Origin: a virus
Length of the DNA stretch: 64,000 bases
Direction: 5' to 3' (one strand)
IMG/VR virus record: IMGVR_UViG_3300049255_000405
The position numbers and the translations under genes are program-made. Shown piece after piece: positions 7,186 through 41,113 of this stretch. Position 1 is the first letter of the stretch, and every line of letters starts with the position of its first letter. The notes beneath the pieces were generated by a model. It saw only the letters and a list, made by a program, of their open reading frames with translations, did not search any database and was not told where the DNA came from.

Positions 7186-8510
7186 AGCTTCACCCAGTCA
7201 AAATCCACATCCAGAACTTCCAGAGCATCGACGATCTGGAAATTGAGGTGCATGGGTTCACATGCATCACCGGACCGTCGAACGTCGGCAAGAGCGCCAT
7301 CGTGCGCGCCACGTCTTCGGCCATCCTCAACAACCCGGTCGTCGGCATGGTGCGCAAAGGCGCGCAGTTCTGCACGGTGGAAATCTCGTCCGAGGGCTGG
7401 GGCTTCAAGTGGGAGAAGAACGACAAGGGAGTCAACCGCGTGTGGCTCCCCGGCAAAGACAAGCCGCTGGACAAGATCGGACAAGTCCAGGTCAAAGAGA
7501 TCTCGCAGATGGGCTTCGGCTCCATCGAAGTCGGTGACGACGAAATCCAGCCCTGGTTCGCGCCGCAGTTCCAATCGAAGGGGTGTGGACCTCTCTTCTT
7601 GCTGGACCAGTCGGGGCCGAGAGTAACCGACTTCCTGTCTGAAGTGTCGCGGCTGACTATCCTTCAGGACGCCATCGTTCTTGCCGCTCGAGGCAAACGC
7701 GGAGCGACAGACCAGGCCAAGAACAAGCACGAAGAGGCGGCCAACCTCAGGACGCTTCTGGCCCGCATCGGCGCCCTCGACACCCTGGAGAAGCTCGGGC
7801 GCGACCTCGAGGAACAGGCATCGAGCATCGAGCAGTACGAAGAGCGCATCACTCTTGGGGAATCACTCATCGCCAAGAGGGTGGAGGCCGAGCGGATTAT
7901 TCGGATACTCGAAAAGGTCGATGACGTAAAGATTCCCAAGGACGTAGCGGCCGAGCCCATTCAGAAGTTCCGCGACGTCTACCGCATCTGCGCTCTGCTC
8001 GAGAAGAGCGCGGCAAAAGTCCGCGACGTCCGGGACGTCTCTAAGGTGAAGGTTCCGGACCTTCTGGACGAAGAGATAGGCAAACTCCGCGAGCTGCAAC
8101 GGTTCGCTCAGCTGGAACCGCTACGCCAGTCGGTCAAGCTCCTGGAAGACCTCACGAAGGTCAAGGTTCCAGACTCCAAGAAACTCCGGGCCGAGATGGA
8201 GAAACTCTCGACCATCGCCGGGTACGCCACGAAGATAGAGGCTGCCCGAGCTTCGGTCGCTCTGCTCGATCAGGATGTACCGACCCCGGAGGATATCGAG
8301 GAGGTCAAGAGGCTTCGGCAACTCCTGGAACTCGACCAGCGCCTCCAAGAGGCGGCAGCCGATGTCATGACCCTCGAAGCCCAGGTCAAGCAGAACGACG
8401 CCGACCTGGAGAAAATCGACAAGGCCATCGCCGCCATTCCGGCTTGCCCAACGTGTCACCGACCGTGGAGCCCCGAGCACACCGGACGGCACAAGAAGCT
8501 GTCGGCCTAG
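7182..8510 (+). CDS. SMC/Rad50/SbcC-like ATPase N-terminal half: head N-lobe plus coiled coil ending in a CxxC hook
   Basis: GTGA overlap with recA-like stop; GPSNVGKSA P-loop after beta-rich N-terminus; long coiled coil; C-terminal IPACPTCHRPW. Confidence 0.6.
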   Translation: MKLHPVKIHIQNFQSIDDLEIEVHGFTCITGPSNVGKSAIVRATSSAILNNPVVGMVRKGAQFCTVEISSEGWGFKWEKNDKGVNRVWLPGKDKPLDKIGQVQVKEISQMGFGSIEVGDDEIQPWFAPQFQSKGCGPLFLLDQSGPRVTDFLSEVSRLTILQDAIVLAARGKRGATDQAKNKHEEAANLRTLLARIGALDTLEKLGRDLEEQASSIEQYEERITLGESLIAKRVEAERIIRILEKVDDVKIPKDVAAEPIQKFRDVYRICALLEKSAAKVRDVRDVSKVKVPDLLDEEIGKLRELQRFAQLEPLRQSVKLLEDLTKVKVPDSKKLRAEMEKLSTIAGYATKIEAARASVALLDQDVPTPEDIEEVKRLRQLLELDQRLQEAAADVMTLEAQVKQNDADLEKIDKAIAAIPACPTCHRPWSPEHTGRHKKLSA

Positions 8511-8998
8511 CGCTTCGTCTTCTCCGACCAGCGCCGCAGGTCGTCCAGGTGGTGGGTGTCGAGGACGACCGTGTCCTCGGCAAAGACCCGGAGACCAACG
8601 TTCGCACCCGAGATTTCGGCGAGCTGCCTGCCGACCTCGATAGCTTCCAGCTCCATTGCCATGAGCACTTGCAGGAACCCGTCCAGGTTGGGCGGGCACG
8701 CGGGAATCTGAATATAGGTCTGCATGGGGTCGGCGCCCATGCCGATGACCTTCATGTTCAGCGCGTACGTGTTCTTGCGCTCGTCCTCGGCATGCTCGTA
8801 CCAGTGCTCGGCGAGGCCGTCGCGGTACGGGCCGAGGAGCCGGTCCGCGAAGTTCCGATACGCCATGTCGATGGCGTACTTGGCCGAAAGGAACTTCTGC
8901 AGGTGCGCGATCACCTGGCCTTCCGGGACTGCGAACTCGCCCTCTTTGGACGGCATCGTGGCCACGCGGCTGGCGATTCGTAGGCGTCGAGCGTCCAT
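8507..8998 (-). CDS. Ferritin-like/Dps-like four-helix-bundle protein (tentative)
   Basis: Internal start of track ORF 8507..9415; helical profile with H/E/D spacing loosely resembling Dps; function uncertain. Confidence 0.35.
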   Translation of the reverse strand: MDARRLRIASRVATMPSKEGEFAVPEGQVIAHLQKFLSAKYAIDMAYRNFADRLLGPYRDGLAEHWYEHAEDERKNTYALNMKVIGMGADPMQTYIQIPACPPNLDGFLQVLMAMELEAIEVGRQLAEISGANVGLRVFAEDTVVLDTHHLDDLRRWSEKTKR

Positions 8999-9037: not shown

Positions 9038-9331
9038 GTGAGACGCATCGACTGGGCCTTCGTGACCAAGGACAAGGGGCTCGCACTGATGACCGTCCCG
9101 GACCTCGCCGGCAATGGCGAAATGTATCTTGCTGATTTTCGGGATACGCAAGCGTTGGGTTACAGAGCGACCAAGCACTTCGTCGGACTTTCGAAGACTC
9201 GAGGACTCCGACTCGGCGGCCACCCATTGCGGATGATCGATGGGGTCTGGTATATCACCGAGGACACTCAGACGGGCGTCCAGGATCTTCAAGTTTCTGA
9301 TGAAGCGTTCTGCCTGCAACCCATAAGGTGA
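9038..9331 (+). CDS. Hypothetical protein
   Basis: Track ORF; lies antisense to the implausible N-terminal extension of the - strand ORF. Confidence 0.3.
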   Translation: MRRIDWAFVTKDKGLALMTVPDLAGNGEMYLADFRDTQALGYRATKHFVGLSKTRGLRLGGHPLRMIDGVWYITEDTQTGVQDLQVSDEAFCLQPIR

Positions 9332-9360: not shown

Positions 9361-9831
9361 ATGGCAAACGAGATTGACGGTCTCCACCTTGTCGTAGACG
9401 GACTGGTGGAGTCACCCAAGAAGGTCTTCAGCGAGAAGAACCTCCGGGCGCTGCTTCTTCAACTGGTCAAAGACCTCAAGATGCAGCTCATCTTCGGTCC
9501 CGTCTTTCACGAGGTCGAGATCGAACCGTCTCGGCTGACCGGCGACGTGTTCCAGGACGAGGGCGGTATCTCGGGATTCTGCATGATCGGGACGAGCCAC
9601 ATCTCGATTCACGTGTGGCCGCTCCGAAAGCACTTCTCGATGGACGTGTTCTCCTGCAAGCAGTTCGACAGGGAGCTTGCCCGAGAGACCATCGAAAAGA
9701 TGCTCGACCCCACCCAGGCTTCCTACGTCGCTGTTCAGAGGCGGCAGGGTGGGTTTGTGACCGAGCAGGAGCCCGAATCGGCTACGTACGCCCGTCCGGT
9801 GCACGAGCAATCCGTCGCTGCGGCCCCGTGA
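9361..9831 (+). CDS. speH: S-adenosylmethionine decarboxylase proenzyme, small pyruvoyl-dependent SpeH/SpeD type
   Basis: GLHLVVDG...GISGFCMIGTSHISIHVWP...MDVFSCKQFD aligns with SpeH (GRHLV...[20 protein letters not shown]...IDLFTCG). Confidence 0.8.
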   Translation: MANEIDGLHLVVDGLVESPKKVFSEKNLRALLLQLVKDLKMQLIFGPVFHEVEIEPSRLTGDVFQDEGGISGFCMIGTSHISIHVWPLRKHFSMDVFSCKQFDRELARETIEKMLDPTQASYVAVQRRQGGFVTEQEPESATYARPVHEQSVAAAP

Positions 9832-12672: not shown

Positions 12673-13374
12673 ATGCGCATCCTGATTACTGGGTTCGACC
12701 CGCAGTGGGGCATCAAGAAGACCCCTTCCGGGGAAGTGGCCAAGTTGTGGGCCTCGGGCGATATTCAGGTGCCCGGAATCGAGACGCATGCCATTGTGCT
12801 GCCGCAGATCTTCGGCAAGAGCGCCGAGATCGCCTGCGCCGAGATCCAGACGTTCGACCCGCAGGCGGTACTGATGTTCGGCGCCACAATGCACAACGAC
12901 CCCGTGCGCCTCGAGCGCTTCGCTATCAATTGCGAAGCGTCAGTGATGGGTGACAACACTCGCATTCCAGTCGTGCCCGACCGCAACATCGTCCAGGGCG
13001 GACCTGCCGCCTACGAGTCCACTCTGCCCGTGTACTGGCTGATGGACCACCTCAACGCCCAGGGCATCGACTGCAAGGTCTCGTATCACGCCGGGACGCA
13101 CACGTGCAACTCTCTCATGTACAACGTGCTGCACTTCCTGGCAAGCAAGCCGCACCCGATGCCTGTCATCGCGGGCTTCATTCACGTACCGTTTCCTAAC
13201 GAATTCGGGGTGATTGAAGACTCGCTATGGACGACGGCAACGTTCGAGGGGATAGTGCAAGCCTCAGTTGGCTTGGTGCAGAAGGTACGGGACTGGTACC
13301 AAGACAAGTACGGACCCGTGCCGATCAACACTTCTGCTCCATCGAATACTTCGACCACGAAGGCGAAAAAGTAA
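12673..13374 (+). CDS. pcp: Pyroglutamyl-peptidase I (pyrrolidone-carboxylate peptidase, C15)
   Basis: MRILITGFDP...QGGPAAYEST...VSYHAGTHTCNSLMY...GFIHVPF aligns along the whole Pcp length with the Glu/Cys/His triad. Confidence 0.9.
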   Translation: MRILITGFDPQWGIKKTPSGEVAKLWASGDIQVPGIETHAIVLPQIFGKSAEIACAEIQTFDPQAVLMFGATMHNDPVRLERFAINCEASVMGDNTRIPVVPDRNIVQGGPAAYESTLPVYWLMDHLNAQGIDCKVSYHAGTHTCNSLMYNVLHFLASKPHPMPVIAGFIHVPFPNEFGVIEDSLWTTATFEGIVQASVGLVQKVRDWYQDKYGPVPINTSAPSNTSTTKAKK

Positions 13375-13489
13375 TTCGGCACGCCTTTTTGAGCGTCGAA
13401 GAGCAGAAATTCCTCATCGAGGAGTGCGCCCGCCGCGGCCTCGAGGCCAAGGTCCACGACCTTCATCCTCCGGCTGTAAGCTCGGACCA

Positions 13490-14113
13490 ATGAAGGAGCC
13501 GAGAGACTGGACCAACGTCATCGACGCTATCTCCGGAGACGTGCGTCGGTTGAGCTACGTCGTGCGCTACAGTAGCATTCCGATAAGCGTTCCGGAGAAC
13601 GTCGCCGAGCACTCGTACTGGGTGGCTCTCTTCGCGGCCGTCATACACAAGACGCTGCATCCCGGAGACTACGAAGGCGTTGGGCCTGTAGTCTTGGGCG
13701 CCATTCTGCACGACACGGCCGAATGCGTGACCGGCGATCTGGTGCGCACATTCAAATACTCTTCCGACAAGCTCCGTCAGGCCATCGACGAGGCCGAGCA
13801 GGTGGCGGTGGCCAAGTTCCCGTCGCCCATCTTGAACGTGTACGATTTGCAGCAGCAGATTCAGTTCAAGAAGAAGGACTACGTCAAGCAGGTCGTCAAA
13901 GCGGCCGACTTCATGAGCCTCATGCAGTACATGGTCCGAGAAGTCCGTCGCGGCAATCGCGAGATCATCAATCCGTTCTACCTCCGCATGGAGGAGGACC
14001 TGAGCCAAATGCGCCGCATCTTGGCCGAGCAGCAGGACACGGAGTGGGGACAGCTCGAGAGCTTGTACCGTGACATGAACAATCACGCCAGAGCGGCTAG
14101 GATGGGCGGATGA
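13490..14113 (+). CDS. HD-domain phosphohydrolase, YfbR-like 5'-deoxynucleotidase
   Basis: VAEHSYWVALFA...ILHDTAECVTGDL motif; internal ATG 13490 of track ORF 13268..14113. Confidence 0.8.
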   Translation: MKEPRDWTNVIDAISGDVRRLSYVVRYSSIPISVPENVAEHSYWVALFAAVIHKTLHPGDYEGVGPVVLGAILHDTAECVTGDLVRTFKYSSDKLRQAIDEAEQVAVAKFPSPILNVYDLQQQIQFKKKDYVKQVVKAADFMSLMQYMVREVRRGNREIINPFYLRMEEDLSQMRRILAEQQDTEWGQLESLYRDMNNHARAARMGG

Positions 14114-14643
14114 ACGGGAACATCGAGACCAAGAGCGAGATCCGCGCCAGAATAGACGAGCTGCAAAAGCTCCGCGAGATGTTCTGGAGCAGCAAGACTG
14201 CTATCCTTGTCGAGGACCAGATCGACAAGCGCCTGCAGGAGCTGCACCGTGATCTCTCCTCGGCCGAAGAAGACCTTTCGTCCTCCATCATCCGTTCCCA
14301 CAAGGCCATCTGCAAGGCCAAGCAGATGGACGAGAAAGCGGCGTACGGCAACGATCCCGCGGTCTATTACACCCTCGGCATCTGCGGCGAAGCCGGAGAG
14401 ATGGCCAATGCCATCGTCAAGGCGCAGCGCAACGGCGCAGACCAAGCGAAGGTGCTCGAGGCCATAAAGGGAGAGCTGCCCGATGTGGTCATTTATTCGT
14501 ACGTTCTTGCGTACGTTCTGGACATCGATCTTTCGAAGCTTGTCAACGAGAAGGTCGAAGTCGTCATCGACCGAGCTAACAAGGGTTACTATGGACGCCC
14601 CCTATCGCACCCCAGCGGAAGTTCCGGAACAACCGGCACCTAA
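14110..14643 (+). CDS. mazG: MazG-like nucleoside triphosphate pyrophosphohydrolase
   Basis: ATGA overlap with the HD gene; LGICGEAGEMANAIVK EExxE core typical of MazG family. Confidence 0.75.
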   Translation: MNGNIETKSEIRARIDELQKLREMFWSSKTAILVEDQIDKRLQELHRDLSSAEEDLSSSIIRSHKAICKAKQMDEKAAYGNDPAVYYTLGICGEAGEMANAIVKAQRNGADQAKVLEAIKGELPDVVIYSYVLAYVLDIDLSKLVNEKVEVVIDRANKGYYGRPLSHPSGSSGTTGT

Positions 14644-15162: not shown

Positions 15163-15669
15163 CTACTGCCCGCGCGGTCTGCCCGTGATGCTCCCGTCGA
15201 GGTTCCCGAAGAACTGCTTGTAGACGGGCAGCGTATTGCCGTTGATGCGACGAGTGGCCACCGCGTCCGAATCGAGCGGGTCCTGGATGAGCGACGACTG
15301 GTTGGCGAGCGCCACGAGATCCACGTCGTTCGTGATGCGCAGAAGGTCTTTCTTGGCGTCCGGGTTGCGGACGAGAACCGTGTAGACCTCTCCGAACGTC
15401 AGCTCGTCGAGGATGCAGCGACCGACTCCCTGCGTGAATCCTGGCGGAGGCGGAGTGAACCAGACGTTGGGTGTCTGGATGTCGCCCGAACACGTCGTGC
15501 AGCAGTTCTTGTCCGGGTTGACCATGTTGTGCATCTGCAGGCGACCCTGGCCACAGATGCACGGACGACGCTGGCAGGCGCAAGGAGGCGCCGGCGGACA
15601 GGGCGGGAGGCGGTTTCCGACGACCGGACCGAAGCACCGACAGGGGTTGCAGTTGCACGAGCAAGTCAT
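15163..15669 (-). CDS. Cys-rich protein with metallothionein-like N-terminus, translationally coupled to the CN-hydrolase
   Basis: ATGA overlap with the nitrilase stop; MTCSCNCNPCRCFGP...PPCPPAPPCACQRRPCICGQG...NCCTTCSG. Confidence 0.55.
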   Translation of the reverse strand: MTCSCNCNPCRCFGPVVGNRLPPCPPAPPCACQRRPCICGQGRLQMHNMVNPDKNCCTTCSGDIQTPNVWFTPPPPGFTQGVGRCILDELTFGEVYTVLVRNPDAKKDLLRITNDVDLVALANQSSLIQDPLDSDAVATRRINGNTLPVYKQFFGNLDGSITGRPRGQ

Positions 15670-16445
15670 TGGGCACCCGTAGTGGCGGTCACGACGCAGT
15701 CTTTGCTGAACTCCACGCCGCCGGTGTGGCACGTCCAGTCAGGTTCGATGATGATGGATCCGCCCTGACCGAATTCACCCTTGAAGCCGTGCGAGCCAAG
15801 CTCTTCCCCCCACCGGTTGGCGATGATGAGGGTGCACTTCTCGTCGGTGGCAAAGTCCATCCACGACGTCGACGGGTAGCCTCCCTTGCCCCAGTTCACG
15901 CTCGCGGCTACGAGGTCGAGCTTCTGGCCGCTGAATAGTGGAATGCTCTTCGCGGCCACGCGAGGAATGTTCTGCGGGATCTTGTTACGCAGATCCCGGC
16001 ACACGACGATAGAAGTCGATCCGAAATCGGTCTCGACCACAGGAGCGCTCGCGATACCCGGCGTGGCCCACAGAAAGTCGTTGCCCCAAAGGTTGACTTT
16101 GCGGTAGCTCGTCAGAAGCTTGCCGTCCGGACCAACCAAGGAGGCCGAGTTGTAGAGGTGGGTTCCATCGGTCTCGACGTAGCCCCAAGAGACGTACGCC
16201 TTCAGCTCGAGAGCGACTCCCCGCATGAATCGGAAGGTCGGTCCGTCCGAAGCCTCACAGACCCGGGATGCCTCGTCCTTGTTCAGGAAAGAGTACCCAG
16301 TGAAGCAAAGCTCCGGGAAGGCGATGAACTGCGACCCGAGCTGGGCCGCTTGATGGATGAGAGACTCCACCCGGCGGTAGTTGTTGCCCACCTCGGCCAT
16401 ACTGGCGGCCAAACGCGGGCGGAACTGCACAGCCGACAGAATCAC
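15666..16445 (-). CDS. Carbon-nitrogen hydrolase (nitrilase superfamily) protein
   Basis: AVQF N-terminus; FPELCFTGY (Glu), YRKVNLWG (Lys), VVCRDLR (Cys) catalytic-triad pattern. Confidence 0.8.
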   Translation of the reverse strand: MILSAVQFRPRLAASMAEVGNNYRRVESLIHQAAQLGSQFIAFPELCFTGYSFLNKDEASRVCEASDGPTFRFMRGVALELKAYVSWGYVETDGTHLYNSASLVGPDGKLLTSYRKVNLWGNDFLWATPGIASAPVVETDFGSTSIVVCRDLRNKIPQNIPRVAAKSIPLFSGQKLDLVAASVNWGKGGYPSTSWMDFATDEKCTLIIANRWGEELGSHGFKGEFGQGGSIIIEPDWTCHTGGVEFSKDCVVTATTGAQ

Positions 16446-17873: not shown

Positions 17874-18581
17874 ATGAAGACGCAGACCAAGACCGAAATC
17901 CGCAACAACACGGCCAAGGCCACCAAGTTGCTGCGGGGCATCGACAACGAGGCGGCAGCGATCGCCAAGGACCAGGCGAAGCTCAACCAGCGCGTCGAGA
18001 ACGTGAAGAAGAGCGTGACCGTGGTCGCGTCCCTGCTCGGCGGCATCTCGAATACGGCCCTGGCGGCTCCCGTGGCTCCGGCCAAGCCCGCTCCGGCTGC
18101 CAAGAAGACGGCGGCGAAGCCCGCCAAGCCGGCCAAGCCCGCGAAGAAGGCGGCGGCCAAGCTCGCGAAGGCGGCGGCCAAGAAGGCAGCCAAGACGGCC
18201 AAGAAGGCAGCGGCCAAGGCAGCCCCGGCGAAGAAGGCGGCGAAGCCGGCGGTCGCCGCGAAGCCGGGCGAGCGTCCGCCGCTCAAGTCCCTCATCAACG
18301 GCACGCTCGACGCCGTGTCCAACGAGTGGACCCCCGCGGCCGAGATCTACAAGCAGGTGTGCGCCAAGGCCGGCTACTTCTCGCGCCAGTCGCTCTACAA
18401 CGCGCTCAAGGACGAGAAGTCGTACGAGAAGCAGGGCGAGGGCGCTGCGGCGAAGTTCCGCCGGGTCGCGGGAGCCTCGGCTTCGGCCAAGGCCGCTCCG
18501 GCGACCAAGACAACCGACGAGGAGGCCGACAAGTTCGTCGAGAAGTCGACGACCAACCCGGCCACCGCGGCGGCGACCTGA
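17874..18581 (+). CDS. Histone H1-like / AlgP-like Lys-Ala-Pro repeat DNA-binding protein
   Basis: GGAGGA RBS; central AKPAPAAKKTAAKPAKPAKPAKKAAAKLAKAAAKKAAK... repeats flanked by structured ends. Confidence 0.65.
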   Translation: MKTQTKTEIRNNTAKATKLLRGIDNEAAAIAKDQAKLNQRVENVKKSVTVVASLLGGISNTALAAPVAPAKPAPAAKKTAAKPAKPAKPAKKAAAKLAKAAAKKAAKTAKKAAAKAAPAKKAAKPAVAAKPGERPPLKSLINGTLDAVSNEWTPAAEIYKQVCAKAGYFSRQSLYNALKDEKSYEKQGEGAAAKFRRVAGASASAKAAPATKTTDEEADKFVEKSTTNPATAAAT

Positions 18582-18585
18582 GACT

Positions 18586-18660
18586 CGGGAACTGGAGTTC
18601 CCACCAGGCTAATAACCTGGGGCTTCGCAGCCATCGCAGGTTCGATTCCTGCCGGTTCGC
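18586..18660 (+). other. tRNA-like cloverleaf element (possible tRNA pseudogene, tRNA-like ncRNA or terminator cluster)
   Basis: Canonical T-arm GCAGG-TTCGATT-CCTGC, anticodon-like arm CCAGG-CTAATAA-CCTGG, D-like arm GGGA-ACTGGAGT-TCCC with U8/A14/GG, extra hairpin GGCT-TCGC-AGCC; no base-paired acceptor stem. Confidence 0.3.
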
Positions 18661-18756
18661 CGGAAGGCGAACTGCACGAGATGCTCTTCTGCTCGGCTTC
18701 TAAACACGAGGCCGAGCGAAGGCATACTTCGTAAAGCTCGAACCGCGTTACGTAAC

Positions 18757-23297: not shown

Positions 23298-23835
23298 CAC
23301 GTTTCGATTCCCAGGCCGCGTAGTCCTCGAGTACGCACTGCAGGACGCACGCGAGCGCCCACTGGAATTCGGGCACGCCTGCGACGTGCACTTGCGCCTG
23401 GACGCCCTCTATGACGTCGAGGATGTCCGCGATGCGGCACCGCCACCGGAAGTCGACATAGACCCCGAGAGGTAGCATCGGGATGATGTCCGAGGGCTCC
23501 TTGATGAACGTCGAGAGCCGCTCGAAGATGTTGAGGAGCTGCTGCGTCCAGGCGCGCACCGCCACATTGACCTGGTCGGCACCGGACTGCGTGCCGCCGA
23601 ACACGTTCATCCGCTCCTGGGTTACTTGCGGTAGCCATACCGCGATCGGTTGATGGATGCGCGGATGATCGATGTAACCCGCTGCGAGTAGTTGCGGGAC
23701 AACCGTCTGAAAAAGGCAGCACGGCATCGTGATACCCAGCGCTGCTGTGCCAGAAGGAAAGTCGCGAGCGGTGAACGTGACTTGGCCATGTTCGAAGAAT
23801 CGTGTCTCGTCCCGAGGTTCAGGCTTTGTGTCCAT
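23272..23835 (-). CDS. Hypothetical protein
   Basis: Internal ATG 23835, 13 nt downstream of the dcd stop. Confidence 0.45.
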   Translation of the reverse strand: MDTKPEPRDETRFFEHGQVTFTARDFPSGTAALGITMPCCLFQTVVPQLLAAGYIDHPRIHQPIAVWLPQVTQERMNVFGGTQSGADQVNVAVRAWTQQLLNIFERLSTFIKEPSDIIPMLPLGVYVDFRWRCRIADILDVIEGVQAQVHVAGVPEFQWALACVLQCVLEDYAAWESKRAKSLPSRA

Positions 23836-24529
23836 CGAACATCTTCCAAGATCGAGACGGAACCGGGCCCTCGGCCAGCTCGCCCTTGTAGTTGCCTTTT
23901 TCTTTGTAGCTGTCGACCTCACCCACGATGGTGTGGAAGCGGATCTGGCAGAACCTCATGCCCGGGTAGACGATGAGGGGCTGCAGCACTGCGACCTCGA
24001 GCGTGTACTGCCCATCGAATCCGGGGTCGCCGTATCCAGCCGTCACGTGCACGAAGCAGAAAAGACGACCGATGGATGACTTGCCGTCGATGATGGGCAC
24101 ATACCGGTCGGTGCTGATGCGCTCCTGCGTGTGCATCAGATAGCCCACGCCCGGCATGAGGACGAATCCTTCATCCTGCATGGTGAACCGGGCGACCTCA
24201 TTCTCCTTGGCAGCATCGAGACATCCGCGCTTGAGTAGCGAGAACTTGGCTGCGGCGTCTTCTTTGGGTCGCACCTTCCAGCCCGGGAGACCCGTGACGA
24301 GATTCTTCAGCTCTGTACCATCGAACTCCTCGTAGTATGGGTCCGGGGAGAAGTTCGGCACGGTCGTGTCGGTATAGACGGCGATCTCGCGCCCGAGCGT
24401 CAGATCGTAGCTCGCGGGATTGAGCCTCTTGAGGCACTCAGGGTCCTTGGCGTCGAAGGGGGTGATTTTGATGTCTCCCTCTTGGAGGGCTCGCAGGATA
24501 GAGCGGCCCGACAGAATTCCTGATTGCAT
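23819..24529 (-). CDS. dcd: dCTP deaminase (dUTPase superfamily)
   Basis: LSGRSILRALQEG.I.I.P...ASYDLTLG...VHVTAGYGDPGFDGQYTLEV...PGMRFCQIRF aligns with Dcd. Confidence 0.85.
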   Translation of the reverse strand: MQSGILSGRSILRALQEGDIKITPFDAKDPECLKRLNPASYDLTLGREIAVYTDTTVPNFSPDPYYEEFDGTELKNLVTGLPGWKVRPKEDAAAKFSLLKRGCLDAAKENEVARFTMQDEGFVLMPGVGYLMHTQERISTDRYVPIIDGKSSIGRLFCFVHVTAGYGDPGFDGQYTLEVAVLQPLIVYPGMRFCQIRFHTIVGEVDSYKEKGNYKGELAEGPVPSRSWKMFDGHKA

Positions 24530-38191: not shown

Positions 38192-38217
38192 CACCCGATC
38201 TTACAACTATCGAAGCG

Positions 38218-38658
38218 TCAGTGCTTGGAAGCGCCGCCGCAGTTCCAGCCCATTGCCTGCACGTCAGCCGAGGTCTTGGCACCGAGCAGATCGTTGCAGG
38301 TGAGGCCCTGCTGGGTCTTGGGGTTGCGGATGACGCGGTTGGCCTGCGCGAGCGACAGAACCTTGGCGCAATCCGCCTGCTGGGCGCAGCCCATGGCGGC
38401 CATCTGAGCGCATGCCTTGGCGCACGGATCCGTGGGAGCCGGAGGAGCTGCATCCTGCGCCGGAGTCGGAGCGGGAGCTGCATCGACCGCAGGCGTCGGC
38501 GTGGGGGCCGAATCCATGGTCGGGACAGGCGGCGGAGGGCTTCCGTCGGGTCCTCCGTCCGGTGCCGGTGGGTTGGGCGGGGTCGGAGGGCACCCCGCCA
38601 TGCCGAGCGTCGACACGGCCAGGAAGAGCCCGAGAAGGGGGATCGCTGTCTTCTTCAT
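38218..38658 (-). CDS. Proline-rich lipoprotein (possible outer-membrane spanin-like component)
   Basis: MKKTAIPLLGLFLAVSTLGMAGC signal with lipobox; PPNPPAPDGGPDGSPPPPVP; C-terminal Cys pairs. Confidence 0.55.
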   Translation of the reverse strand: MKKTAIPLLGLFLAVSTLGMAGCPPTPPNPPAPDGGPDGSPPPPVPTMDSAPTPTPAVDAAPAPTPAQDAAPPAPTDPCAKACAQMAAMGCAQQADCAKVLSLAQANRVIRNPKTQQGLTCNDLLGAKTSADVQAMGWNCGGASKH

Positions 38659-39527
38659 CACGCAGCCGCCTTCTGGACCTGGACGTCCATCACGTAAAGC
38701 TCCCAGGCCGCCTTGACCCACGCCTCGGAAACGAGGCAGCGACCGTTGTCACACCAGCCGGTACCCCAGCTGTTGGTGAGGATGAAGGTGCGGGTTCCGT
38801 CCGCGTTGGTGGTGTAGCCCGACAGGTAGATGGCGTGGCCACCGCCGTTCGGGTCGTTCGTGTTCGGAGGCTGCGCCACCTGGCCCGGCTGCAGCTGCTC
38901 GAACGCCGTGTCGACGAACGCCGCGACGTAGACCGGGAAACCGGCGGCGAGAGCCGCAGCCACCTGATCCGAAACGTTCGCTGCACTCGGGTCGATGGCG
39001 TACTCGCCCGTGACGATGGTGGTGCCAGCTGCCTGGAGCTGGTTGGCGTCCACCTCGTTGTTGACGTTCGCCGGCTGAGCCGTCGTGTCAGCATCCGACC
39101 AGATGTCGGAGTTGCGGCCGTCCGGAGTCGGGCCCTGCATCGGAGCAACGCCGAACTGCGCGCATGCCGTGAACACGTCCGCGGGCTCGGCGCCCGAGTC
39201 GGTGAGAAGCGGCAGGGGCTGACCCGCCGGCGTCTGCGCCGCGCGCTCGATTCCTCGAGTAGCGGCGTACGTCTCGCGCGGCGAAGGCTCGAACCCGATC
39301 TGGATGCCCGCCTTGCGGCAAGCTGTGGAGGTGCTGCCCGACAGCGAGTGCGCCGTGCAGGAGCCCGTCTGGCCCTGATCGAGCCGCGGGGGCTCCCACT
39401 GGGACAGGTCGACGGACGCCGGAACGGTGGCCGCAAGGAGTGCGGCAATCGCCGGGTGGGTGGCCGCCGCTTTCTTGGAGGCGACCTTCGACGGATGACT
39501 GCGCTTTGCACCCTTTGCGAACGGCAT
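38658..39527 (-). CDS. Papain-like (C1 family) cysteine peptidase, secreted
   Basis: QGQTGSCTAHS (catalytic Cys context), GGHAIYLSGY (His), NSWGTGWCDNG (Asn/Trp); weak N-terminal signal. Confidence 0.7.
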   Translation of the reverse strand: MPFAKGAKRSHPSKVASKKAAATHPAIAALLAATVPASVDLSQWEPPRLDQGQTGSCTAHSLSGSTSTACRKAGIQIGFEPSPRETYAATRGIERAAQTPAGQPLPLLTDSGAEPADVFTACAQFGVAPMQGPTPDGRNSDIWSDADTTAQPANVNNEVDANQLQAAGTTIVTGEYAIDPSAANVSDQVAAALAAGFPVYVAAFVDTAFEQLQPGQVAQPPNTNDPNGGGHAIYLSGYTTNADGTRTFILTNSWGTGWCDNGRCLVSEAWVKAAWELYVMDVQVQKAAA

Positions 39528-39950
39528 TTACTTGGCTCCCGCTGCCTTCTGGGCTCGGACGTTGGACTGCAGCGTCTTGAAGTTCGCGAGGAGAGAGACC
39601 GACACGCAATTGGGCAGGCCGTACGCCGGCTTGCCGGAACCACATTTCATGTCGCTCGCCGCCACGGCCGCGCCAGCTTCCTGCGGCTGGTCGTAGTAAT
39701 TGATGATGCTGGCGATGATCTGCTCGACATCAGCCAGGGTCGAGCCGATGCACGCGCCGGTGATCTTGAGCGGGTCGGTCACGCCTTGGAACATCTCGGC
39801 GATGACGCAGCTGGCGATCTGGCCAACGTCCGTCGTCACCTGGCCGCTATTGCTGGCCCACCAGCCACAGCCAGTCTGCGTTGCTGTGGTGCCGCCGATA
39901 GCGACACCCATACCCACGATGATTGCGATTGGAGCCAGTTTGCGAATCAC
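39528..39950 (-). CDS. N-terminal-TM / secreted Cys-containing protein (possible inner-membrane spanin-like)
   Basis: MIRKLAPIAIIVGMGVAIGG TM; TAA/ATG junction with the peptidase gene. Confidence 0.45.
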   Translation of the reverse strand: MIRKLAPIAIIVGMGVAIGGTTATQTGCGWWASNSGQVTTDVGQIASCVIAEMFQGVTDPLKITGACIGSTLADVEQIIASIINYYDQPQEAGAAVAASDMKCGSGKPAYGLPNCVSVSLLANFKTLQSNVRAQKAAGAK

Positions 39951-40399
39951 TTGCCACCTCCATCAGCCGCCGGCGCAGCAGGTGCCGGGGTGGGCGTTTT
40001 GCCCTGGGAAGACTTGTGCGCGATGAGGTGGGCATGGCACGCAGCGCCCGCGCCAGCTGACGACAGCGCCATGACGCCAGCGATGATGGCGTTCAGAATG
40101 GACGAGCCGTTGACACCGGAAGCGCCCTGCAGCGACAGACCGAAGGCCGTCAGGAATGAACCAGCCAGAGTCAGGTAGGGGATCCACGCCTTAGGCGTGG
40201 TCGCGACCCCGAAGAGACTGCCAGTGTTGACGGCCTGTCCAATGAAGCCCGCGAGCAGAGCGACGATGGTCACGATCGCCGTCTGTGTCGAAATCGTGAC
40301 AGCCGCAGCGGGGGCCGCAGTCTGCGCGAAAGCGAGGCTCGCGAAGGACATGACGACGCCGAAAGTGAGGGCGAACGTCAGGGTAGATCGGAACTTCAT
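39947..40399 (-). CDS. Multi-TM membrane protein with signal peptide (holin-like candidate)
   Basis: MKFRSTLTFALTFGVVMSFASLAFAQ plus 3 hydrophobic helices; ATGA overlap with the downstream gene. Confidence 0.45.
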   Translation of the reverse strand: MKFRSTLTFALTFGVVMSFASLAFAQTAAPAAAVTISTQTAIVTIVALLAGFIGQAVNTGSLFGVATTPKAWIPYLTLAGSFLTAFGLSLQGASGVNGSSILNAIIAGVMALSSAGAGAACHAHLIAHKSSQGKTPTPAPAAPAADGGGK

Positions 40400-40504
40400 G
40401 GGAAATACCTCGCCCCAGGAGGCCCATGAAAGTTCTAGCCGCTTACGGGGTACAGCCGTAAATCCAGAAGGGGATTATGTAGCCAATTGGAGGAGATAGA
40501 ACAA

Positions 40505-41113
40505 ATGAAGTCGCTGAAGGTTGTCTCGGTCAGTCTGGTGTTCGTTGCAGCGCTCGTGGGCTGCACTTCCGACGCGTTCACGTCGGGCGACCTGCCGGAC
40601 TCGGGAACCGACTCCGGAGACCCGACCGAAGGTTCGGTCGGAAACGACTCCGGCGGCGACAGCGCCAAGGTGGGAGATCCCGATACTGGCGTGGATGCGG
40701 GCCCAGGGATCGACACCGGCACGACGGACACCGGGACGCCCGACTCCGGCACCGACACGGGGACGACAGACTCCGGGACAGTGGATTCCGGCACCGACAC
40801 GGGGACGACAGACTCCGGCGCCGACGCCGCCGACGCCGCCGACGCGAGCTGTTTCACGGTCCCCTCTGGCTCCACCGGAGTCACCTGCGACTCCTGCATG
40901 AAGTCGTCGCCGTGCGCCAGTCAGCGAGACATCTGCATCGCTCAGTGCGGTCCCTCGGGATGCGCCGACGCCTGGGAGGGTTTCCTCGCCTGCATCGACC
41001 TGAACCCGGATGCCGGCGGGACTCTCTGCGCCAGCACCTGGCTCTCGGACAGCCCCGTGGAGGCCAACCTAGCCTCCTGCGGCAACACCTTCTGCAGCAG
41101 CCAGTGTCAGTAG
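40505..41113 (+). CDS. Lipoprotein with (D/T)(S/T)GT tandem repeats and Cys-rich C-terminal domain, on the opposite strand to its neighbours (moron-like)
   Basis: GGAGG RBS; MKSLKVVSVSLVFVAALVGC lipobox; 12 Cys in the last 80 aa. Confidence 0.65.
   Translation: MKSLKVVSVSLVFVAALVGCTSDAFTSGDLPDSGTDSGDPTEGSVGNDSGGDSAKVGDPDTGVDAGPGIDTGTTDTGTPDSGTDTGTTDSGTVDSGTDTGTTDSGADAADAADASCFTVPSGSTGVTCDSCMKSSPCASQRDICIAQCGPSGCADAWEGFLACIDLNPDAGGTLCASTWLSDSPVEANLASCGNTFCSSQCQ
40696..40848 (+). repeat. Tandem ~45-nt coding repeat (TCCGGCACCGACACGGGGACGACAGACTCCGG twice) plus GCCGACGCC triplets
   Basis: Near-identical copies at 40744-40776 and 40787-40818. Confidence 0.6.

What the first reader, a model, noticed from the sequence alone, without database searches (positions are those of the whole stretch)
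9361..9831. Phage-encoded S-adenosylmethionine decarboxylase (polyamine auxiliary metabolism)
This is a small SpeH-type pyruvoyl-enzyme proenzyme with a good match around the self-cleavage/active site (GTSHISIHVWP vs [11 protein letters not shown]). The usual Glu-Ser cleavage site is Thr-Ser here. With the CN-hydrolase at 15666..16445 (the family that includes N-carbamoylputrescine amidase) it suggests viral manipulation of spermidine/putrescine pools, which matter for DNA packaging.
Basis: partly seen in the sequence, partly recalled or inferred. Interest (0 to 1): 0.6.

Follow-up and report, generated by a model that had tools for sequence, protein, structure and literature searches.

The report
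Phage pyruvoyl decarboxylase, atypical SpeD clade
A large phage carries a small self-cleaving decarboxylase of the S-adenosylmethionine-decarboxylase fold, but it belongs to an untested branch whose changed active-site residues suggest it may not act on S-adenosylmethionine, more likely on arginine or ornithine; phage genes of this general kind are already known.

Summary
Window 9361..9831 (+) encodes a 156-aa protein matching Pfam AdoMet_dc (E 6.9e-19). Its AlphaFold model (pLDDT 89.9) superposes on Thermotoga AdoMetDC (TM 0.81). The pyruvoyl serine, His and Cys (S79, H84, C99) are invariant in 72 homologues, and the cleavage site is Thr-Ser.

The protein falls below NCBI's AdoMetDC equivalog cut-off (50.9 vs 75.65 bits). 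It belongs to a large uncharacterised clade with the motif DEGG..TSH..WPLR..FSCK.FD. That clade occurs in IMG/VR phage contigs up to 435 kb and chromosomally in Myxococcota. Among 191 members the residue before the serine is never Glu, and the Glu after the conserved Pro is Leu. All validated AdoMetDCs examined keep both acidic residues.

The nearest relatives are a clade sitting next to agmatinase (21/28 loci) or SpeY, the published signature of SpeD-derived arginine decarboxylases. No spermidine synthase, agmatinase or SpeY was found in the window or in 68 related phage loci.

The CN-hydrolase at 15666..16445 is not an N-carbamoylputrescine amidase (48 vs 410 bits).

Best reading: a self-processing decarboxylase probably acting on a basic amino acid. 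The substrate is untested. Phage SpeD homologues, including neofunctionalised ones, were described in 2023.

The parts
9361..9831 (+). ORF of 156 aa (17.5 kDa): proenzyme with the class-1b AdoMetDC/SpeD fold, from the 'DEGG-TSH-WPLR' clade
9592..9597 (+). Predicted self-cleavage site, Thr78|Ser79. Ser79 would become the pyruvoyl group. Products would be a beta chain (1-78, 8.6 kDa) and an alpha chain (79-156, 8.9 kDa).
   Evidence: Alignment to Tm S63. S79 is invariant in 72 sequences. The site lies in the turn between strands 67-76 and 79-86 of the model. Molecular weights.
9610..9612 (+). His84, equivalent to T. maritima His68 (processing and catalysis)
9655..9657 (+). Cys99, equivalent to T. 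maritima Cys83 (proton donor)
9556..9567 (+). Invariant Asp66-Glu67-Gly68-Gly69 loop. The acidic pair is shared with the agmatinase-linked sister clade and is absent from canonical AdoMetDCs (which have F-x-P-x-G here). It is a candidate binder of a basic substrate side chain; this is inference.
9616..9627 (+). Invariant Trp86-Pro87-Leu88-Arg89. Leu88 replaces the Glu of the canonical 'WPE' (Tm Glu72).
9745..9828 (+). C-terminal tail (about residues 129-156). It is modelled with low confidence and varies in length and sequence among homologues, so it is probably disordered.
15666..16445 (-). It is not an AguB/NCPAH orthologue, and I do not count it as part of the same pathway.

Best explanation
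The gene encodes a self-processing, pyruvoyl-dependent decarboxylase of the class-1b AdoMetDC/SpeD fold. After translation the proenzyme should cleave itself between Thr78 and Ser79. This turns Ser79 into an N-terminal pyruvoyl group on the alpha chain, with help from His84. The enzyme would work as an (alpha-beta)2 dimer. It would bind the alpha-amino group of its substrate as a Schiff base and release CO2, with Cys99 protonating the carbanion.

The protein belongs to an uncharacterised clade (DEGG..TSH..WPLR..FSCK.FD) that is common in large and jumbo phages and in Myxococcota. I infer that this clade, like its closest relatives, has left AdoMet as substrate. It most likely decarboxylates a basic amino acid (ornithine or arginine) and so feeds putrescine or agmatine into host polyamine synthesis during infection.

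Shown: fold, family, conservation of the catalytic residues, clade signature, phylogenetic neighbourhood, and absence of partner genes. Inferred: autoprocessing, substrate, and physiological role.
For: Fold and catalytic apparatus.

Thr-Ser cleavage sites are proven functional in this fold. The HTVC201P arginine decarboxylase has ETSH. The SpeDC ornithine decarboxylase domain of D. phosphitoxidans has ETS, with S229A mutagenesis and processing shown on gels.

Not a canonical AdoMetDC:
- TIGR03330 gives 50.9 bits, below the 75.65 cut-off.
- Among 191 clade members the residue at -1 is Thr in 181 and Lys in 10, never Glu. His+4 is Leu in 176 and Glu in 2.
- Validated AdoMetDCs (T. maritima, S-PM2, phiYS40, P2559S and the two SpeD1 fusion domains) all have Glu-Ser and an acidic residue at His+4 or +5.

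Affinity:
- The clade profile scores the 'EDWG..AESH..FPE..FSCK.FD' clade at 60-82 bits, canonical AdoMetDCs at 35-42 bits, and HTVC201P at 30 bits.
- That sister clade lies next to an agmatinase in 21 of 28 loci and next to SpeY/DS in 9 of 28. It also occurs fused to DS. This is the published speDA-speB-speY signature.
- In an NJ tree the split {this clade + sister + HTVC201P ADC} versus all validated AdoMetDCs has 78% bootstrap support.

Shared derived features with the neofunctionalised enzymes are the acidic pair before the GxS strand, 'SC(K/N)x(F/Y)D' instead of 'TCG', and Asp instead of Glu at residue 13.

No SpeE was found in the window or in 1.2 Mb of related phage loci.
Against: - No member of this clade has been assayed, so substrate assignment from sequence is weak.
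- Li et al. report one validated AdoMetDC (Sinorhizobium phage phiN3) inside the ODC clade, so clade position does not fix function. I could not see its sequence.
- The protein keeps the Pro that Li et al. found fully conserved in bona fide AdoMetDCs and not conserved in ADCs.
- It also keeps a Phe (F64) that aligns with Tm F49. I equate Tm F49 with the adenine-stacking Phe223 of the human enzyme by spacing, from my own knowledge rather than a test.
- It has only 1 of the 4 ODC-diagnostic residues (Thr; it lacks Gln, Phe and Tyr).
- The sister ADC-type clade retains both Glu residues, so losing them does not by itself point to arginine.
- Only 1 of 27 cellular loci of this clade has an agmatinase nearby, and there are no polyamine genes around it in 9 Myxococcota loci.
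- Bootstrap support inside the non-canonical group is low (41-53%).
Confidence: 0.45

Rival explanations
1. It is a bona fide S-adenosylmethionine decarboxylase. It would make decarboxylated AdoMet for the host's spermidine synthase, or simply drain the host's AdoMet.
For: It matches the Pfam and PHROG families named AdoMetDC. Pro87, the residue reported as fully conserved in true AdoMetDCs, is retained, as are Trp86 and Phe64. Orphan phage speD genes that rely on host SpeE have been validated, for example in S-PM2, phiYS40 and P2559S. phiN3 shows that an AdoMetDC can sit in a non-canonical clade.
Against: - It scores below the TIGR03330 equivalog cut-off.
- Glu(-1) and Glu(His+4) are replaced in essentially all 191 clade members. 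By homology with human Glu67 and Glu247 these contact the adenine and ribose of AdoMet; that equivalence is my inference.
- It is closer to the agmatinase/SpeY-linked clade than to validated AdoMetDCs.
- No SpeE was found in the window or in 68 related phage loci.
Confidence: 0.25
2. It is a pyruvoyl decarboxylase with a new specificity that is none of AdoMet, arginine or ornithine. Candidates include lysine, 2,4-diaminobutyrate, aspartate (giving beta-alanine for CoA) or a carboxylated polyamine.
For: - The active-site signature is unique. No acidic residue occurs at -1/-2 or at His+4, Arg89 is invariant, and there is a 12-16 residue insertion before the DEGG loop.
- The protein fits neither the ODC nor the AdoMetDC diagnostic residues.
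- The clade lacks polyamine-gene neighbours in Myxococcota.
- In close relatives the same genomic region carries CoaB, CoaC, TANGO2 and a CN-hydrolase whose best PDB relatives include an entry named beta-ureidopropionase.
Against: This is pure inference with no positive evidence for any particular substrate. All SpeD homologues assayed so far use AdoMet, Arg or Orn, and none uses Lys. One clade member (L023) does sit beside an agmatinase.
Confidence: 0.22
3. It is a catalytically dead or purely regulatory homologue, analogous to the trypanosome prozyme or to degraded SpeDC domains.
For: Degraded SpeD-like domains do exist, for example in the Victivallis fusion.
Against: Ser79, His84 and Cys99 are invariant, and the surrounding motif is conserved across 72 and 191 sequences. 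The degraded domains have lost these residues.
Confidence: 0.04

Closest known systems
SpeDA: AdoMetDC-derived pyruvoyl L-arginine decarboxylases (Li et al., JBC 2023, PMC10407285; the clade found with speB and speY)
   Same: - Same class-1b fold and the same Ser/His/Cys.
- An acidic pair precedes the GxS strand, the motif is 'FSCK.FD', and the N-terminus reads H-L-x-x-D-G.
- These are the best non-self matches to the clade profile (60-82 bits).
- Such genes are also found in huge phages (LR756501, and MaAM05 speH_1).
   Different: - The sister clade keeps Glu-Ser and Pro-Glu, where this protein has Thr-Ser and Pro-Leu-Arg.
- The sister genes are clustered with agmatinase or SpeY (21/28 and 9/28 loci). 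This clade is not (1/27 cellular loci, 0/68 phage loci).
- I linked the sister clade to validated SpeDA enzymes by gene context and the literature description, not by matching an assayed sequence.
Pelagiphage HTVC201P pyruvoyl arginine decarboxylase (AXH71538; Li et al., PNAS 2023, PMC9992855)
   Same: It is a phage-encoded orphan SpeD homologue with a Thr-Ser cleavage site. Its relatives (HTVC103P, HTVC115P) gave among the lowest E-values of the annotated phage hits to the window protein (2e-6 to 6e-6).
   Different: Identity to its relatives is only about 25-30%. HTVC201P has ETSH...HSWDEDE, so the Pro is lost and the acidic residues are kept. It has 2 extra residues before the Cys and lacks the DEGG loop and the insertion.
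SpeDC: AdoMetDC-derived pyruvoyl L-ornithine decarboxylases
   Same: Both have Thr before the pyruvoyl Ser, no Glu at His+4, the 'FSC' motif, and an acidic cluster before the GxS strand.
   Different: The window protein lacks 3 of the 4 diagnostic residues. At the Gln position it has Cys74, at the Phe position Val85, and at the Tyr position Ser93. It has HVWP instead of GHFAN.
Canonical class-1b AdoMetDC (SpeH/SpeD: T. maritima 1TLU, B. subtilis, cyanophage S-PM2 SpeD)
   Same: It shares the fold (TM 0.81), the Ser/His/Cys, the Trp-Pro after the His, and its size.
   Different: It has Thr instead of Glu before the Ser, Leu-Arg instead of Glu-x after the Pro, DEGG instead of xPxG, SCK instead of TCG, and a 12-16 residue insertion. 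It scores below the NCBIfam equivalog cut-off.

Membership tests
AdoMetDC/SpeD class-1b superfamily (Pfam PF02675) | Match to the family HMM above the curated threshold | tested here: met
   68.6 bits against a cut-off of 25, covering nearly the full profile
AdoMetDC/SpeD class-1b superfamily (Pfam PF02675) | Alpha-beta sandwich fold of the prokaryotic AdoMetDC proenzyme | tested here: met
   AF2 pLDDT 89.9. Foldseek to 1vr7/1tlu gives E 3e-8, TM 0.81-0.82 and rmsd 2.6-3.0.
AdoMetDC/SpeD class-1b superfamily (Pfam PF02675) | Pyruvoyl-precursor Ser plus His and Cys (Tm S63, H68, C83) | tested here: met
   S79, H84 and C99 align to these residues and are invariant in 72 homologues
AdoMetDC/SpeD class-1b superfamily (Pfam PF02675) | Autocatalytic serinolysis into beta and alpha chains | not testable with these tools
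   Needs expression and SDS-PAGE or mass spectrometry
Bona fide S-adenosylmethionine decarboxylase (EC 4.1.1.50; NCBIfam TIGR03330 equivalog) | Score at or above the equivalog cut-off | tested here: not met
   50.9 bits against 75.65, and only residues 60-127 match
Bona fide S-adenosylmethionine decarboxylase (EC 4.1.1.50; NCBIfam TIGR03330 equivalog) | Glu-Ser cleavage site, and an acidic residue after the conserved Pro (..ESH..H.WPE..) | tested here: not met
   The window protein has TSH and WPLR. In the clade, -1 is Thr in 181 and Lys in 10 of 191, and His+4 is Leu in 176 of 191. That these residues define the family is my generalisation from 7 validated sequences plus the human structure.
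Bona fide S-adenosylmethionine decarboxylase (EC 4.1.1.50; NCBIfam TIGR03330 equivalog) | The Pro that is fully conserved in true AdoMetDCs (marked gamma in Li et al. 2023, Fig. 8) | tested here: met
   Pro87 is invariant. I assume gamma is the Pro of 'WPE'.
Bona fide S-adenosylmethionine decarboxylase (EC 4.1.1.50; NCBIfam TIGR03330 equivalog) | A partner aminopropyltransferase (SpeE) in the same genome or cluster | tested here: not met
   tblastn with E. coli SpeE (query checked against 3O4F) found nothing in the 64-kb window or in 68 related phage loci. No Spermine_synth hit appeared in the Pfam scans. A host SpeE could substitute, so this is weak evidence.
Bona fide S-adenosylmethionine decarboxylase (EC 4.1.1.50; NCBIfam TIGR03330 equivalog) | Decarboxylates AdoMet and complements a delta-speD strain | not testable with these tools
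   Requires an experiment
SpeDC (pyruvoyl ornithine decarboxylase) | Four diagnostic residues: Gln(-5), Thr(-1), Phe(His+1), Tyr(Cys-6) | tested here: not met
   The window protein has Cys74, Thr78, Val85 and Ser93, so 1 of 4. I inferred the positions from the supplementary alignment of two SpeDC domains.
SpeDA (pyruvoyl arginine decarboxylase) | Gene clustered with speB or aguA/aguB and speY, or placement in a validated SpeDA clade | tested here: inconclusive
   The nearest clade is linked to agmatinase and SpeY. This clade itself is not: 1 of 27 cellular loci and 0 of 68 phage loci. The NJ grouping with the sister clade has only 41% support, and the wider non-canonical group has 78%.
N-carbamoylputrescine amidase (AguB, TIGR03381), tested for the CN-hydrolase at 15666..16445 | Score at or above the equivalog cut-off, with agmatine deiminase present | tested here: not met
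   48.3 bits against 410.25. PDB NCPAH scores 30.7 bits against 77 for Pyrococcus PH0642. No PAD_porph/AguA hit appeared among the scanned ORFs.

The most novel reading that the evidence does not exclude
The DEGG-TSH-WPLR clade is a further, independently neofunctionalised branch of the AdoMetDC fold. Its substrate would be none of AdoMet, arginine or ornithine, or it would be a second, convergent origin of ornithine decarboxylase. In this reading jumbo phages and Myxococcota exchange the gene and use it for a metabolic step not yet assigned to this fold.
Probability: 0.22. Interest if true: 0.6.

Novelty: new variant of a known kind. Interest (0 to 1): 0.4.

Why it matters
Phages need polyamines for replication and packaging. 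SpeD homologues are among the commonest polyamine-related auxiliary genes in phages, and databases name them all 'S-adenosylmethionine decarboxylase'. Work from 2023 showed that many of them are really arginine or ornithine decarboxylases.

This gene represents a large branch that has not been assayed. The clade profile finds 24 clusters (at 50% identity) below E 1e-30 and 747 below 1e-10; the second count also includes neighbouring clades. The branch occurs in jumbo phages and in Myxococcota, and its active-site signature fits none of the three known specificities.

Assaying one member would correct the annotation of hundreds of viral and bacterial genes. It would show which step of polyamine (or other amine) metabolism these large phages take over. 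It would also add a data point on how often this small fold changes substrate.

It is not a new kind of system, and the practical consequence is mostly better annotation.

Tried and rejected
1. A polyamine operon made of the decarboxylase and the CN-hydrolase. Rejected: the CN-hydrolase is not an AguB orthologue, lies 6 kb away on the other strand, and co-occurs only in the closest relatives.
2. A search for SpeE, agmatinase and SpeY in the window and in 68 phage loci found nothing.
3. A search for a recurrent neighbour gene across 29 distinct phage loci found only lineage synteny, at most 7 of 29 loci.
4. The gene neighbourhood in 9 Myxococcota loci contains no polyamine genes.
5. Domain fusions as functional hints. 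In this clade the fusions are to GIY-YIG homing endonucleases, which is a phage hallmark and not metabolic. The DS/SpeY fusion belongs to the sister clade.
6. Finding an assayed sequence inside the sister clade through a second large protein search. This gave 7638 hits and one 'arginine decarboxylase proenzyme' name, but no accession I could tie to an assayed protein.
7. Retrieving the Sinorhizobium phage phiN3 SpeD as a calibrator. It was not hit by any of my queries and was not found in the first 50 kb of the record. I gave up on this.
8. The structural papers on T. maritima AdoMetDC ligand complexes are not held in the library. The ribose and adenine roles of Glu72 and Glu62 therefore rest on my knowledge of the human enzyme.
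9. One of my tblastn queries ('Agmatinase_L056') was mislabelled. It is a DprA homologue, and its hits were discarded.

Full report
**1. What is there**

The + strand ORF 9361..9831 (ATG start, TGA stop) encodes 156 aa. An in-frame GTG at 9328 exists, but the homologues start MANEIDGLH, so 9361 is the start.

- The protein matches Pfam AdoMet_dc (PF02675) at E 6.9e-19 and 68.6 bits, against a cut-off of 25, over nearly the whole profile.
- It matches PHROG 3125, 'S-adenosylmethionine decarboxylase', at 5.6e-19.
- Against PDB sequences the only real hits are the T. maritima and Aquifex AdoMetDC proenzymes (E about 4e-5). The alignment puts GTSHISIHVWP..DVFSC on [12 protein letters not shown]..DLFTC.
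- This makes Ser79, His84 and Cys99 the equivalents of Tm Ser63, His68 and Cys83. Those are the residues required for self-processing and catalysis (PMC10407285).
- An AlphaFold2 model built on 72 homologues has mean pLDDT 89.9. Residues 77-78 form the turn between two strands, as expected for the cleavage site, and the C-terminal tail (about 129-156) is modelled with low confidence.
- Foldseek finds 1vr7/1tlu at E 3e-8, with TM 0.81-0.82 normalised on the target.

**2. Genomic setting**

The window has about 60% GC and no near DNA match among 50,697 phage records. Its gene content is phage-like:

- Replication and recombination: RecA-like, SbcC-like ATPase, RuvA-like, family-A DNA polymerase, DnaB helicase, primase zinc ribbon, SNF2 helicase.
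- Nucleotide metabolism: dCTP deaminase, YfbR-like nucleotidase, MazG.
- Other: DnaJ and a sigma-factor-like protein.

A 79%-identical homologue lies in a syntenic 93-kb contig with the order RecA, SbcC, ferritin-like, AdoMet_dc, then RuvA and further genes. More distant homologues lie in phage-like contigs of 150-445 kb. IMG/VR holds at least 38 viral loci with the same clade, on contigs up to 435 kb.

**3. The protein belongs to a distinct clade**

In 72 aligned homologues the invariant residues are D13, M41, P47, D66-E67-G68-G69, S79, H80, H84, W86-P87-L88-R89, D95, S98, C99, A107 and R127. T78 is more than 90% conserved. The motif is DEGG(I/V)(S/T)G.C.I.TSH..IH.WPLR...D.FSCK.FD.

A profile search of 1.84 billion representative proteins gives 24 clusters below 1e-30 and 747 below 1e-10. 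Most of the top 150 carry this motif.

In GTDB genomes the motif is chromosomal in Myxococcota (Polyangiaceae, Labilithrix, Nannocystis), on contigs up to 847 kb.

Across 191 distinct clade members:

| Position | Residues |
|---|---|
| before the Ser (-1) | Thr 181, Lys 10, never Glu |
| His+3 | Pro 185 |
| His+4 | Leu 176, Glu 2 |
| His+5 | Arg 170 |

**4. Comparison with assayed enzymes**

Phage SpeD homologues are known. Li et al. showed bona fide AdoMetDC activity for S-PM2, phiYS40, phiN3 and P2559S. They showed arginine decarboxylase activity for pelagiphage HTVC201P, and ornithine decarboxylase activity for several uncultured phages (PMC9992855). They also found widespread SpeDA (ADC) and SpeDC (ODC) enzymes in bacteria and archaea (PMC10407285).

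I retrieved the sequences of the S-PM2, phiYS40, P2559S and HTVC201P enzymes. I took two SpeD1 (AdoMetDC) domains and two SpeDC (ODC) domains from the paper's supplementary alignment. The alignment shows the following.

| Group | Cleavage site and downstream motif |
|---|---|
| Validated AdoMetDCs | Glu-Ser, with an acidic residue at His+4 or +5 (WPE, FPE, WIDE) |
| HTVC201P ADC | ETSH..HSWDEDE |
| ODC domains (SpeDC) | QLIETSL.SGHFAN..Y.D.FSC |
| Window protein | GTSH..HVWPLR |

The window protein shares the Thr with the two neofunctionalised groups. It has only 1 of the 4 ODC-diagnostic residues. It keeps the Pro that Li et al. found fully conserved in true AdoMetDCs. It has no acidic residue at -1, -2 or His+4. 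It also carries a 12-16 residue insertion before the DEGG loop.

By homology with human AdoMetDC, Tm Glu62 and Glu72 would be the adenine- and ribose-contacting residues. The human equivalents are Glu67 preceding Ser68, and Glu247 four residues after His243. This equivalence comes from my knowledge of the human structures and was not tested here, because the T. maritima complex papers are not in the library.

NCBI's AdoMetDC equivalog model scores the protein at 50.9 bits, below the 75.65 cut-off.

**5. Nearest relatives and what they do**

The clade profile gives these scores:

| Group | Bits |
|---|---|
| Own clade | at least 115 |
| 'EDWG..AESH..FPE(K/H)..FSCK.FD' clade (Chloroflexota, Aquificota, DPANN archaea, and the 735-kb phage LR756501) | 60-82 |
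| Canonical AdoMetDCs | 35-42 |
| HTVC201P | 30 |

In the second clade an Arginase-family gene (Pfam E 3.9e-61) lies next to the SpeD-like gene. This holds for 11 of 15 loci by Pfam and 21 of 28 by tblastn. A deoxyhypusine-synthase/SpeY gene lies nearby in 4 of 15 loci by Pfam and 9 of 28 by tblastn. One representative is a SpeD-like::DS fusion.

This is exactly the speDA-speB-speY arrangement described for assayed SpeDA arginine decarboxylases, including one from Woesearchaeota. One member of this clade is named 'arginine decarboxylase proenzyme' in NCBI.

A rough NJ tree (50 sequences, 130 columns, 200 bootstraps) separates {this clade + that sister clade + HTVC201P} from all validated AdoMetDCs with 78% support. 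Resolution inside the non-canonical group is poor, at 41-53%.

**6. Context gives no partner**

- tblastn with E. coli SpeE (query verified against PDB 3O4F), an agmatinase and a DS found nothing in the window or in 68 related phage loci, 1.2 Mb in total.
- Pfam scans of the larger window ORFs show no spermidine synthase, agmatine deiminase, arginase or DS.
- No neighbour recurs across 29 distinct phage loci beyond lineage synteny.
- Nine Myxococcota loci have unrelated, variable neighbours.
- Only 1 of 27 cellular loci of the clade has an agmatinase nearby: L023, on the opposite strand in convergent orientation, 374 nt from the SpeD-like gene.

**7. The CN-hydrolase**

ORF 15666..16445 (-) is a genuine CN_hydrolase (3.8e-21). 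On the AguB model it scores 48.3 bits against a cut-off of 410. Its best PDB relatives are Pyrococcus PH0642 and nitrilase (75-77 bits) and Nta1 (52 bits). N-carbamoylputrescine amidohydrolase scores 30.7 bits.

In the syntenic relative the CN-hydrolase sits in a run of genes that includes DFP (CoaB), Flavoprotein (CoaC) and TANGO2. It accompanies the decarboxylase only in the three closest loci. I see no basis for a joint putrescine pathway.

**8. Verdict**

Four things are shown:

- The gene is a conserved, phage-borne class-1b SpeD-fold proenzyme with an intact catalytic apparatus and a Thr-Ser site.
- It belongs to a large uncharacterised clade with its own active-site signature.
- The clade's closest relatives are ADC-type homologues, not true AdoMetDCs.
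- There are no partner genes.

Three things are inferred, with these probabilities:

- About 0.45: the enzyme self-processes and decarboxylates a basic amino acid, ornithine or arginine. This would raise putrescine or agmatine for host polyamine synthesis.
- About 0.25: it is a true AdoMetDC.
- About 0.22: it has a new specificity.

The kind of feature is known: a phage auxiliary SpeD homologue, possibly neofunctionalised. This branch is not, so I rate it a new variant of a known kind, of moderate interest. A simple substrate panel would settle the question.

Noticed in passing
window 30645-33326 (-): An 894-aa ORF matches the Major Vault Protein shoulder domain (PF11978, 1.3e-25) and a vault repeat (PF17795, 7e-11), with no PHROG or NCBIfam hit. 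A vault-protein-like gene between the primase and helicase genes of a phage is unusual.
   Followed up: no
L004 16947-20216 (relative phage contig, 93 kb); window 15163-16445: In the syntenic relative the CN-hydrolase is the last gene of a same-strand run: TANGO2, Flavoprotein (CoaC-like), DFP (CoaB-like), a 193-aa ORF, then the CN-hydrolase. This suggests a CoA/pantothenate-related module rather than polyamines. The window keeps only the 189-aa ORF and the CN-hydrolase.
   Followed up: partly
window 8510-8962 (-) and 9038-9331 (+): A ferritin/Dps-like gene (PF00210, 4.4e-7) lies just upstream of the decarboxylase gene, on the opposite strand. A 97-aa ORF with no family hit lies between the two. 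The ferritin-like gene keeps this position in relatives.
   Followed up: no
window 27703-28815 (+): A full-length DnaJ (J domain, CXXCXGXG zinc domain and C-terminal domain) is encoded beside the DNA polymerase gene.
   Followed up: no
window 12673-14643 (+), 23822-24529 (-): The window also encodes a pyroglutamyl peptidase I homologue (C15, 4e-32), a YfbR-like 5'-deoxynucleotidase, a MazG-like pyrophosphatase and a dCTP deaminase. Together these look like a nucleotide-pool toolkit plus an odd peptidase.
   Followed up: no
window 18574-18661 (+): ARAGORN calls a single tRNA-Ile with anticodon AAT, 88 nt long, which is unusually long.
   Followed up: no
window 41741-62523 (-): A run of very large ORFs (1288, 1616, 521, 485, 360, 312 and 913 aa) gave no convincing family hit in the searches run. 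Six were scanned against Pfam and/or PHROGs; the 1616-aa ORF was not scanned. They are presumably novel structural proteins. The only hints are weak Laminin_G_3 and baseplate-wedge matches.
   Followed up: no
window 38200-41100: This stretch has the highest GC in the window (about 66%) and many overlapping ORFs on both strands. My GC3-based gene picker found few clear genes there.
   Followed up: no
L019 (Microcystis phage MaAM05, MW495066.1 248177-249093): This jumbo phage has two adjacent 'speH' genes. One is canonical (58.6% identical to T. maritima). The other is of the agmatinase-linked sister type (47.5% identical to the Hydrogenothermaceae MAG sequence (L053) used as sister-clade query). 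This looks like a likely AdoMetDC plus ADC pair annotated as two AdoMetDCs.
   Followed up: partly
P0116, P0118, P0123 (representative proteins): Some clade members are called as fusions with GIY-YIG/NUMOD3 homing endonucleases. The SpeD-like gene therefore appears to be a homing-endonuclease target or neighbour in some phages.
   Followed up: no
L023 6011-7715 (uncultured Myxococcia MAG contig, 12.8 kb): This is the only cellular locus of the TSH clade with an agmatinase homologue beside the SpeD-like gene (36.6% identity over 303 aa, convergent, 374 nt away). It is a weak hint towards arginine as the substrate.
   Followed up: partly
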